Below, one piece after another: positions 20,364-22,479 of a stretch of DNA of 64,000 bases (its first letter is position 1; each line of letters opens with the position of its first letter). The stretch covers positions 113,522,001 to 113,586,000 of the forward strand of contig OX597821.1 of the NCBI GenBank assembly GCA_951406725.2. Reading direction: 5' to 3'. This stretch comes from Octopus vulgaris (lineage: Eukaryota). Below the pieces are notes generated by a model. The model searched no databases. It had not been told where the DNA came from and worked only from the letters and a program-made list of their open reading frames with translations. The position numbers and the translations under genes are program-made.

Positions 20364-20393
20364 AACTTTATGATGAAGAAGATAGAGAAGAAT
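20364..20393 (+). CDS. OSBPL9: OSBPL9 30-nt acidic microexon (ELYDEEDREE)
   Basis: Long poly-T tract plus ccag acceptor, aat|gtaagt donor, phase 1-1. Confidence 0.8.
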
Positions 20394-20857: not shown

Positions 20858-21291
20858 AGATATATATATATATATATTTAGTTATGGTATATTCTGTTAA
20901 GAGCATAGTAGAGTACAGTACAAATCTTATCCATCTTCAGATTTCACCCTGTGCTATGCAGTAGTAGTATCATACGTACTTCCAGGTTTGCATTTGGGCA
21001 TCTGTCATGTGTGAATAGATAATTAAAAAAATTGGAGTGAACAAGAATGGGTATGGTTGGACATTTATTTTTTAATCCCTACAATTGTTTCCATGCAATG
21101 TAGTTCTCCAGACATGCACGAACTTGATTATGTAACTGTTTCCTTGCATTATGAGCTCTAGTTGTGTTTCCTCAGGTGATATGTAAATATTGTCTCTGTA
21201 AGTTCAAATTCTCGGCTTCAAGAACATCCTCTTTTTCTCAATTATATATATATATATATATATATTAATTTGAAACTGACTTATTGGAAGT

Positions 21292-21334
21292 CCACCTGAA
21301 GATTGTCGATCAAGACAAGAAACAATTGTAGTGG
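21292..21334 (+). ncRNA. Minimal type I hammerhead ribozyme motif
   Basis: CCAC-CTGAAGA-TTGTC(GATCAA)GACAA-GAAAC-AATT-GTA^GTGG, with palindromic stem III ACAATTGT. Confidence 0.88.
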
Positions 21335-21506
21335 CGGTTTTTTTGACTATTTATTAAAATTTTATGTATTGATTAAGTCTTTCCTTGTTTGTTTTGCAAA
21401 ATAGTGGTTTTGTCTCTAATAATATTTTATAATATTTTACTATAAAATTGGATTTAATCCTAAATCTGATTTTTTCCCTGTAAATTTGGATTTATTCCCT
21501 AATATT

Positions 21507-21539
<33 letters not shown>

Positions 21540-21542
<3 letters not shown>

Positions 21543-21720
21543 TGTTGTGTCTGGGGAGAGTCATTTTCTTTTTGTGCCTTATAATGTAACATACTCACCG
21601 GAAAAGGTTGCTAGATGCAACGAAAATTTTAGGAAAATAAGAATAAGAAATAAGTGGAAATTTTACCAGTGAGTGTGTAAGGCACAAATAGAAAATGACT
21701 CTCCCCAGACACAACAGAAT
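21540..21720. mobile_element. Fold-back element next to (TA)n; right-arm copy at ~10258-10380
   Basis: TTCTGTTGTGTCTGGGGAGAGTCATTTTCT / AGAAAATGACTCTCCCCAGACACAACAGAA terminal inverted repeats. Confidence 0.85.
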
Positions 21721-22316: not shown

Positions 22317-22479
22317 TGGAGTCCTTGGAAAATCATGGCAGTGTCATCACTCATTTGTTATCTCAAGTACGTATTGGAATGGACTTGACTAAAGTGGTGC
22401 TGCCAACATTCATTCTAGAGAGGCGTTCTCTTCTTGAGATGTATGCTGACTTTTTTGCACATCCAGATCTATTTGTTAA
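22317..22479 (+). CDS. OSBPL9: OSBPL9 exon, start of ORD ([42 protein letters not shown])
   Basis: Closely matches the ORP9 lid region; ttccag and aa|gtaagt splice sites. Not in the ORF track. Confidence 0.96.

What the first reader, a model, noticed from the sequence alone, without database searches (positions are those of the whole stretch)
21292..21334. Textbook 43-nt minimal hammerhead inside a (TA)n-embedded insert, sense to OSBPL9
Seen: CCAC-CUGAAGA-UUGUC(GAUCAA)GACAA-GAAAC-AAUU-GUA^GUGG within a ~245-bp AT-rich module (21265-21510) bounded on both sides by (TA)n. Its sequence is unrelated to the 6029 and 4212 motifs but the topology is the same. It has a U-A pair at 10.1-11.1 rather than G-C. 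Established: palindromic loop III motifs of this kind cleave mainly as dimers. It lies in the intron after the 30-nt microexon.
Basis: partly seen in the sequence, partly recalled or inferred. Interest (0 to 1): 0.75.

Follow-up and report, generated by a model that had tools for sequence, protein, structure and literature searches.

The report
Spliced Penelope retrocopy carrying hammerhead ribozyme
The 43-base hammerhead motif is real but is the ordinary badge of a young jumping gene; this intronic copy, like hundreds of others in the genome, lacks the element's intron and was likely copied from the start of its spliced message, a clue to how such elements normally keep their introns.

Summary
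The motif is there as described and has 492 exact genomic copies. It is the type I minimal hammerhead of a young Penelope-like retroelement of the Hydra clade (840-aa RT + GIY-YIG ORF, (TA)n targeting, ~6.3-kb unit). The U-A at 10.1/11.1 is not special: the position varies across sister families and is non-G-C in 18 of 25 published Hydra ribozymes. A lone weak copy is unlikely to cut the host OSBP-family pre-mRNA.

The surprise lies next to the motif. The insert's first 17 bases are a mini-exon joined at GT/AG to the ribozyme exon; intact elements have a ~1.8-kb intron there. At least 458 genomic arms are spliced, 306 unspliced. Spliced copies are short, start at one site and were never seen linked to the ORF (0 of 46); 11 of 11 ORF-linked ribozymes are unspliced. 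Eleven insertion events begin at the predicted cut site (about 3 expected), one behind a poly(A) tract. So sense, spliced RNA is a template, against a published antisense-template model; productive copies likely come from cut, end-joined RNA. Cleavage and circles are untested.

The parts
21243..21265 (.). Left part of the (TA)n target tract
21266..21282 (+). 3' 17 nt of the element's 23-nt first exon, 7 nt short of the common 5' end of spliced copies; in intact elements it is followed by a GTAAGT donor and a 1.8-2.0-kb intron
21282..21283 (+). Exon-exon junction (intron absent); 348 exact genomic copies of this junction
21283..21510 (+). Start of exon 2 (5' UTR / pLTR); identical to the pLTR upstream of an intact ORF (L101) except for one T of a T run
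21292..21334 (+). Type I minimal hammerhead; predicted cut between 21330 and 21331
21353..21358 (+). ATTAAA, candidate poly(A) signal of the element; one genomic copy (L221) has A19 added 13-14 nt downstream
   Evidence: single case
21431..21435 (+). First common 3' end of family copies (inferred priming site 1)
   Evidence: 119 of 231 arms end here
21436..21510 (+). About 75-bp 'tail' up to the second common 3' end (inferred priming site 2), where this copy ends, about 60 nt before the ATG of intact elements
   Evidence: 101 of 231 arms end here
21511..21540 (.). Right part of the (TA)n target tract
20364..20393 (+). Host 30-nt microexon candidate upstream of the intron (context only)
   Evidence: predicted from AG/GT sites, frame and content; not checked on RNA
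22317..22478 (+). Host exon, start of the oxysterol-binding domain (context only)

Best explanation
The insert is a 245-bp piece of a young Hydra-clade Penelope-like retroelement that carries the family's hammerhead and lacks the element's intron, likely a dead-end cDNA of the 5' end of the spliced, uncut mRNA. Shown: parent element, GT/AG junction, two 3' ends, (TA)n target, short spliced versus long unspliced copies. Inferred: the element's endonuclease nicks (TA)n, the RT primes inside the 5' UTR about 170 or 245 nt from the start and runs off the 5' end, giving a mini copy with no promoter, intron or ORF; often both strands are primed, giving a head-to-head hairpin (this copy has one arm). 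Inferred, less sure: full copies come from RNA that the two hammerheads cut as a dimer (perhaps protein-assisted) and that is end-joined or crossed by a template jump, so the RT passes from the 5' UTR into the unspliced 3' copy of the intron region; that would explain intron retention and more-than-unit copies. At this locus the ribozyme is probably an inert passenger.
For: 492 exact motif copies. Motif 278 nt upstream of an intact 840-aa ORF and again about 6.0-6.8 kb on in 8 of 16 long loci; 8 of 30 ORF loci intact; 0.8% mismatch over 230 arms. Junction variants (donor +0, +4 from GTAAGT, +4 from a mutated donor, a GATAT subfamily) each match a GT donor seen in parent copies and share one AG acceptor. 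Exact counts: 348 + 110 spliced, 306 unspliced arms (patterns differ slightly in length). Of 46 spliced arms reaching the exon start, 41 stop there and 5 run 25-290 nt further; none reaches the ORF 1.65 kb upstream. 11 of 11 ribozymes directly upstream of an ORF are unspliced (16 loci examined; 5 lacked the start or the ribozyme), and 2 of 5 followed upstream extend 445 and 1,120 nt beyond the inferred start site. 40 of 41 classifiable head-to-head pairs (48 examined) share splice class, none mixes spliced and unspliced. 13 arms (11 events) of 15 matches start at the predicted cut; controls gave 4 of 5 matches and 2 among 100 listed of 140; background 24 of 230 arms predicts about 3. One locus joins poly(A)19 to a cut-site start. 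Two internal priming sites defining the tail, and a protein-assisted ribozyme, were shown in vitro for an Anolis Penelope element (PMC11167929, parts 1-2 of 4 read).
Against: No RNA read shows the splice junction, the start site, a cut or a circle. Pfam finds no domain in the ORF; RT/EN identity rests on motifs and unnamed homologues. The cut-site excess is modest (binomial p about 0.014) and 5 of 11 events could be TA microhomology with the target; only 3 must start exactly at the cut. The extra G before the start (25 of 46 versus C in 100 of 100 listed unspliced copies) is mostly explainable by the opposite arm; about 3 cases are unambiguous. One pair (L002) mixes two donor classes, so two RNAs can feed one insertion. 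Loci were not sampled at random. In Anolis the ribozyme was dispensable for insertion in vitro and no reads began at its cut. Unspliced read-through RNA from tandem arrays or host promoters would also give the long copies. The poly(A)/cut junction is a single locus.
Confidence: 0.85

Rival explanations
1. Long, intron-keeping copies come from unspliced read-through or nascent linear RNA, and the hammerhead plays no part in mobility; the mini copies are as described.
For: Ribozyme mutants did not change insertion in vitro in Anolis; minimal hammerheads cut poorly in vitro (PMC4209133); over 750 exact-match arms carry the sequence upstream of the cut site.
Against: Core, helices and palindrome are kept across sister families while loop II and flanks change; excess of cut-site starts and the poly(A)/cut junction. 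A regenerated site after ligation would also read as uncut.
Confidence: 0.45
2. The short form is an internally deleted non-autonomous subfamily (SINE- or MITE-like) that spreads from its own master copies.
For: High copy number, 100% identical copies, fixed 5' end and hairpin shape.
Against: The deletion is exactly GT to AG with several alternative donors that track parent subfamilies; hairpin centres differ from copy to copy; the copies lack upstream promoter sequence.
Confidence: 0.07
3. The sense intronic ribozyme cuts or regulates the host OSBP-family pre-mRNA.
For: Sense orientation, intact core, 0.9 kb behind a microexon.
Against: Only one family copy in the window, so no partner in cis; helices barely form in context; the copy is nearly identical to an intact element, so it is too young to show selection.
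Confidence: 0.05
4. Copies are made from an antisense template by self-priming, as proposed for Penelope elements of a rotifer.
For: Head-to-head palindromes and intron-keeping long copies are both present, the two facts that model was built on (PMC3846280 Discussion).
Against: At least 28 head-to-head pairs have two spliced arms; an antisense RNA would not be spliced at these sites.
Confidence: 0.05

Closest known systems
Hydra-clade Penelope-like elements, incl. Hydra-1_Obim (Craig et al. 2021, PMC8557442; passages, section 11 and supplementary S1/S2 tables read)
   Same: Single RT + C-terminal GIY-YIG ORF, DKT, CxCX5C, CxxC/E/N/CxH, no CCHH, canonical hammerhead, (TA)n targets, inverted 5' copy and one-sided tail.
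   Different: Different family from Hydra-1_Obim (other ribozyme and protein, compared by eye). Unit 6.0-6.8 kb rather than under 3 kb, because of 3.5 kb of non-coding DNA with a 1.8-kb intron; tail about 75 bp rather than 30-40; Asn-rich linker insert; KWK for RWK. No intron or spliced copies are described for the clade in the parts I read.
Minimal type I hammerheads of metazoan PLEs (Cervera and De la Pena 2014, PMC4209133; parts 1-2 of 4 read)
   Same: Short helix I, palindromic helix III, dimer design, mostly solo copies, intron ending next to helix I as in Drosophila virilis Penelope; circular-template idea.
   Different: G10.1-C11.1 absent; intron ends 9 nt before helix I, so splicing does not change the ribozyme; copies very uniform.
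Penelope of D. virilis and Chlamys-3_cRei 5' UTR introns (PMC2377424 passages; PMC8557442)
   Same: Start site in the pLTR followed by a short exon and a 5' UTR intron that genomic full copies keep.
   Different: Intron 1.8 kb versus 75 and 398 bp; here spliced genomic copies outnumber unspliced ones.
Poseidon of Anolis, PAc (Frangieh et al. 2024, PMC11167929; parts 1-2 of 4 read)
   Same: Two internal priming sites bounding the tail; AT-rich target; uncut RNA as template.
   Different: Priming sites lie in the 5' UTR, not the ORF; genomic copies starting at the cut site are seen here, whereas no such RNA reads were found there.
Non-LTR retrozymes (bioRxiv 10.64898/2026.07.22.740005; part 1 of 5 and passages read)
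   Same: Small non-coding hammerhead units derived from PLE pLTRs.
   Different: Not tandem; solo or head-to-head; likely not self-propagating.

Membership tests
Type I minimal hammerhead (PLE) | Core CUGANGA ... GAAA ... UH with helices I and II | tested here: met
Type I minimal hammerhead (PLE) | Short palindromic helix III favouring a dimer | tested here: met
   dimer minimum-energy fold is the double hammerhead, (computed only)
Type I minimal hammerhead (PLE) | G10.1-C11.1 pair (typical, not universal) | tested here: not met
   U-A here; U.U, A.A, A.G, A.C, A-U, U.G in sister families; non-G-C in 18 of 25 Hydra families by my count of table S2
Type I minimal hammerhead (PLE) | Self-cleavage | not testable with these tools
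   indirect only: 11 events start at the predicted cut
Type I minimal hammerhead (PLE) | Compensatory base changes in helices | tested here: inconclusive
   helices were invariant in the sister copies viewed (the pattern fixed them), so no covariation
Hydra-clade PLE | Single ORF, RT followed by C-terminal GIY-YIG | tested here: met
   P0002: YRDD; VVYK...VYIG; no Pfam hit
Hydra-clade PLE | DKT motif; CxCX5C linker; CxxC and CxH around E and N; no CCHH | tested here: met
   SDKT, CTCRDKSNC, CYLC..E..N..CRH, one Cys only between GIY and YIG
Hydra-clade PLE | RWK motif | tested here: inconclusive
   conservative variant KWK at the aligned column
Hydra-clade PLE | (TA)n insertion and canonical hammerhead in pLTR | tested here: met
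Hydra-clade PLE | Generally under 3 kb | tested here: not met
   unit 5,996-6,838 bp in 8 loci; ORF itself 2.5 kb; described as a tendency only
Hydra-clade PLE | Placement in the RT tree | not tested
   no labelled reference proteins were held as stored sequences; no tree built
Naiad PLE | N-terminal endonuclease, no canonical hammerhead | tested here: not met
Neptune/Nematis PLE | CX2-5CxxC linker and CCHH | tested here: not met
Non-LTR retrozyme | Head-to-tail tandem units each with a hammerhead | tested here: not met
   solo here; hairpins elsewhere; short tandems at L044 and L186 only
Host-co-opted intronic hammerhead (human HH9/HH10 type; recalled) | Single copy, conserved across species, stable as monomer | tested here: not met
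   492 copies, weak monomer; cross-species conservation of the locus not tested

The most novel reading that the evidence does not exclude
This octopus family records in DNA the two RNA templates of a Penelope-like element: capped, spliced, uncut mRNA gives hundreds of short dead-end copies, while hammerhead-cut RNA closed into a circle gives the intron-keeping, more-than-unit copies. Intron retention would then be a direct consequence of ribozyme-driven circularisation, and the ribozyme would be essential for productive transposition.
Probability: 0.4. Interest if true: 0.78.

Novelty: new variant of a known kind. Interest (0 to 1): 0.5.

Why it matters
The ribozyme and the clade are known. 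But why Penelope-like elements keep introns, which RNA strand they copy and what their hammerhead is for are stated as open in PMC8557442 and PMC3846280. A young family with intact ORFs, hundreds of spliced copies, a mappable start site, two priming sites and copies starting at the cut makes those questions testable, and already argues against an antisense template for the hairpin copies. I found no paper describing spliced genomic PLE copies (open-access full text only; Arkhipova 2003, Evgen'ev and Arkhipova 2005 and Repbase reports not seen). Practical point: many short hairpin repeats in octopus (TA)n tracts that may be filed as MITEs or SINEs could be such by-products.

Tried and rejected
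Rfam scan: no hit. Pfam on the ORF: none. First idea, an internal deletion derivative (note), dropped once GT/AG ends appeared. One search was meant to sample both splice states but its first letter excluded most unspliced copies; replaced. control was swamped by a sister family (only 100 of 140 listed); one search added. Cap-derived G: examined, mostly ambiguous. Search for more poly(A)/cut junctions: one locus only. Earlier-finding look-ups near the locus, by sequence and by eight words were empty. No tree, no structure prediction, no covariance model. Supplement of the bioRxiv preprint not available; only parts of the PMC8557442 supplement were read.

Full report
Observation. The 43-nt motif is at 21292-21334 as written. 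It is the only type I hammerhead match in the window; shuffles gave 0.06 loose and 0 strict matches per window. Rfam has no hit at gathering score. The monomer is weak: -5.4 kcal/mol, helix III probability 0.03, and in the whole module helix I at most 0.01. Two copies fold best as the double hammerhead (-22.0 versus -10.8). The insert lies sense in the intron between a 30-nt microexon candidate (20364-20393) and an exon matching Oxysterol_BP. OSBPL9 is my recall only. The host is an octopus by inference from homologue labels; species not determined.

Family. The motif has 492 exact copies; the 241-bp module is 100% identical at 11 loci including this one, and most top loci carry an inverted arm. 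Divergent pairs several kb apart led to an ORF and then to full elements: the exact motif lies 278 nt before an 840-aa ORF and again 5,996-6,838 bp later in 8 of 16 long loci. Eight of 30 ORF loci are intact, and arms differ by 0.8%, so the family is young. Pfam gives no hit; 42 homologues at E up to 1e-3, mostly unnamed, align over RT and endonuclease. The protein has DKT, CxCX5C, CxxC/E/N/CxH and no CCHH, the published marks of the Hydra clade, with KWK for RWK. A Hydra family from Octopus bimaculoides is published, with a different ribozyme and protein. No tree was built. The 10.1/11.1 position is U-A, U.U, A.A, A.G, A.C, A-U or U.G among the first 100 of 1,832 matches to a generalised pattern, and non-G-C in 18 of 25 published Hydra ribozymes by my count.

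The insert is spliced. Its first 17 nt do not lie next to the rest in intact elements. There they end a 23-nt exon followed by GTAAGT, and the rest follows an AG acceptor 1,788-2,002 nt later in 9 loci, or 1,129-1,136 nt from a duplicated exon in 2 loci. Exact counts are 348 arms with this junction, 110 with a donor 4 nt further on, and 306 unspliced. Each junction variant matches a GT donor seen in parent copies, including parents whose first donor is mutated; a deletion would not do that. Of 46 spliced arms that reach the exon start, 41 stop there and 5 run 25-290 nt on; none reaches the ORF, which marks a likely start site. A G stands before the start in 25 of 46 against C in 100 of 100 listed unspliced copies. 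Untemplated G is a known trace of cap copying in L1 (PMC4859970, two passages), but here only about 3 cases cannot come from the opposite arm or flank. Among 231 arms held, 119 end at one site, 101 at a second about 75 nt on, and 11 run into the ORF, as for the two internal priming sites shown in vitro for an Anolis element. The window copy is one arm, 7 nt short of the start, ending at the second site.

Long copies are unspliced. All 11 ribozymes directly upstream of an ORF (16 loci examined) follow the intact acceptor, and 2 of 5 traced further extend 445 and 1,120 nt beyond the start site, so they cannot come from a linear mRNA begun there. In 48 head-to-head pairs, 41 could be classed: 28 spliced/spliced with the same donor, 12 unspliced/unspliced, 1 with two donors, none spliced/unspliced (loci were chosen by query, not at random). 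Spliced hairpins contradict the antisense-template explanation offered in PMC3846280 (Discussion read), at least for these copies.

Does the ribozyme cut? Fifteen matches had foreign sequence just before the cut site; 2 are internal deletions and 13 arms, 11 events, begin there. Matched controls gave 4 and 2 among 100 listed of 140; background truncation predicts about 3; p about 0.014. Five events could be TA microhomology; 3 must start exactly at the cut. One locus reads unspliced pLTR, ribozyme, ATTAAA, A19, then a cut-site start, as if the RT crossed from a cut 5' end to a poly(A) 3' end; it is the only such locus found. Against a role: the Anolis ribozyme was dispensable in vitro and minimal hammerheads cut poorly.

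Model. Confident (0.85): the insert is a dead-end copy of the spliced 5' end of the element's RNA and an inert passenger in the host intron. Plausible (0.4): productive copies come from RNA cut at both ribozymes and end-joined, an idea proposed in PMC4209133, which would place the unspliced 3' copy of the intron upstream of the 5' UTR and so explain intron retention. The rival, unspliced read-through RNA, fits the long copies equally well. No RNA-level evidence was obtained.

Novelty. New family and variant of a known clade; spliced genomic copies not found in my searches (listings and the passages cited only). An unchecked AI note from another genome (e1-9506236) reports a similar spliced fold-back; I saw it after noting the junction, and it is not independent support.

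Noticed in passing
window 21540-21719: A second, unrelated 180-bp near-perfect hairpin element (-92 kcal/mol) sits in the same (TA)n tract, with a GTTGC/GCAAC-GAAA piece resembling helix II of a hammerhead but no CUGA in order; seen also beside L022 and L025. Possibly the same kind of by-product from another family.
   Followed up: partly
window 3908 (-), 4217 (+), 44688 (-): Another hammerhead-like repeat family with core changes (CTGATAA, TTGATGA); 3908/4217 form a head-to-head pair.
   Followed up: partly
window about 6029: CTGATGA inside a long predicted hairpin; no GAAA in type I order.
   Followed up: partly
L221 9318-9540 (G000:C8 near 73218260, minus strand): Poly(A)19 joined to a hammerhead cut-site start inside one insertion; single case.
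   Followed up: yes
L002 1741-1780: Hairpin whose two arms use different splice donors, suggesting two RNAs in one insertion.
   Followed up: partly
L192-L205, L003, L018: Older sister subfamilies (about 83-85% identity where measured) form the same mini hairpins with the same 5' start and 3' ends.
   Followed up: partly
P0002 residues about 495-610: Asn-rich insert between RT and endonuclease, absent or short in 9 homologues; similar inserts are described in rotifer Penelopes.
   Followed up: no
L101 4833-8331: 3.5-kb non-coding region with internal repeats, a CpG-rich block upstream of the inferred start site, and duplicated first exons in some copies.
   Followed up: partly
window 56835-55453 (-): Intron-less 461-codon open frame that looks like protein O-fucosyltransferase 2 (label recalled, not tested).
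   Followed up: no
window 21162-21197: A second AG...GTAAG microexon-like candidate (36 nt) just upstream of the insert; probably chance.
   Followed up: no
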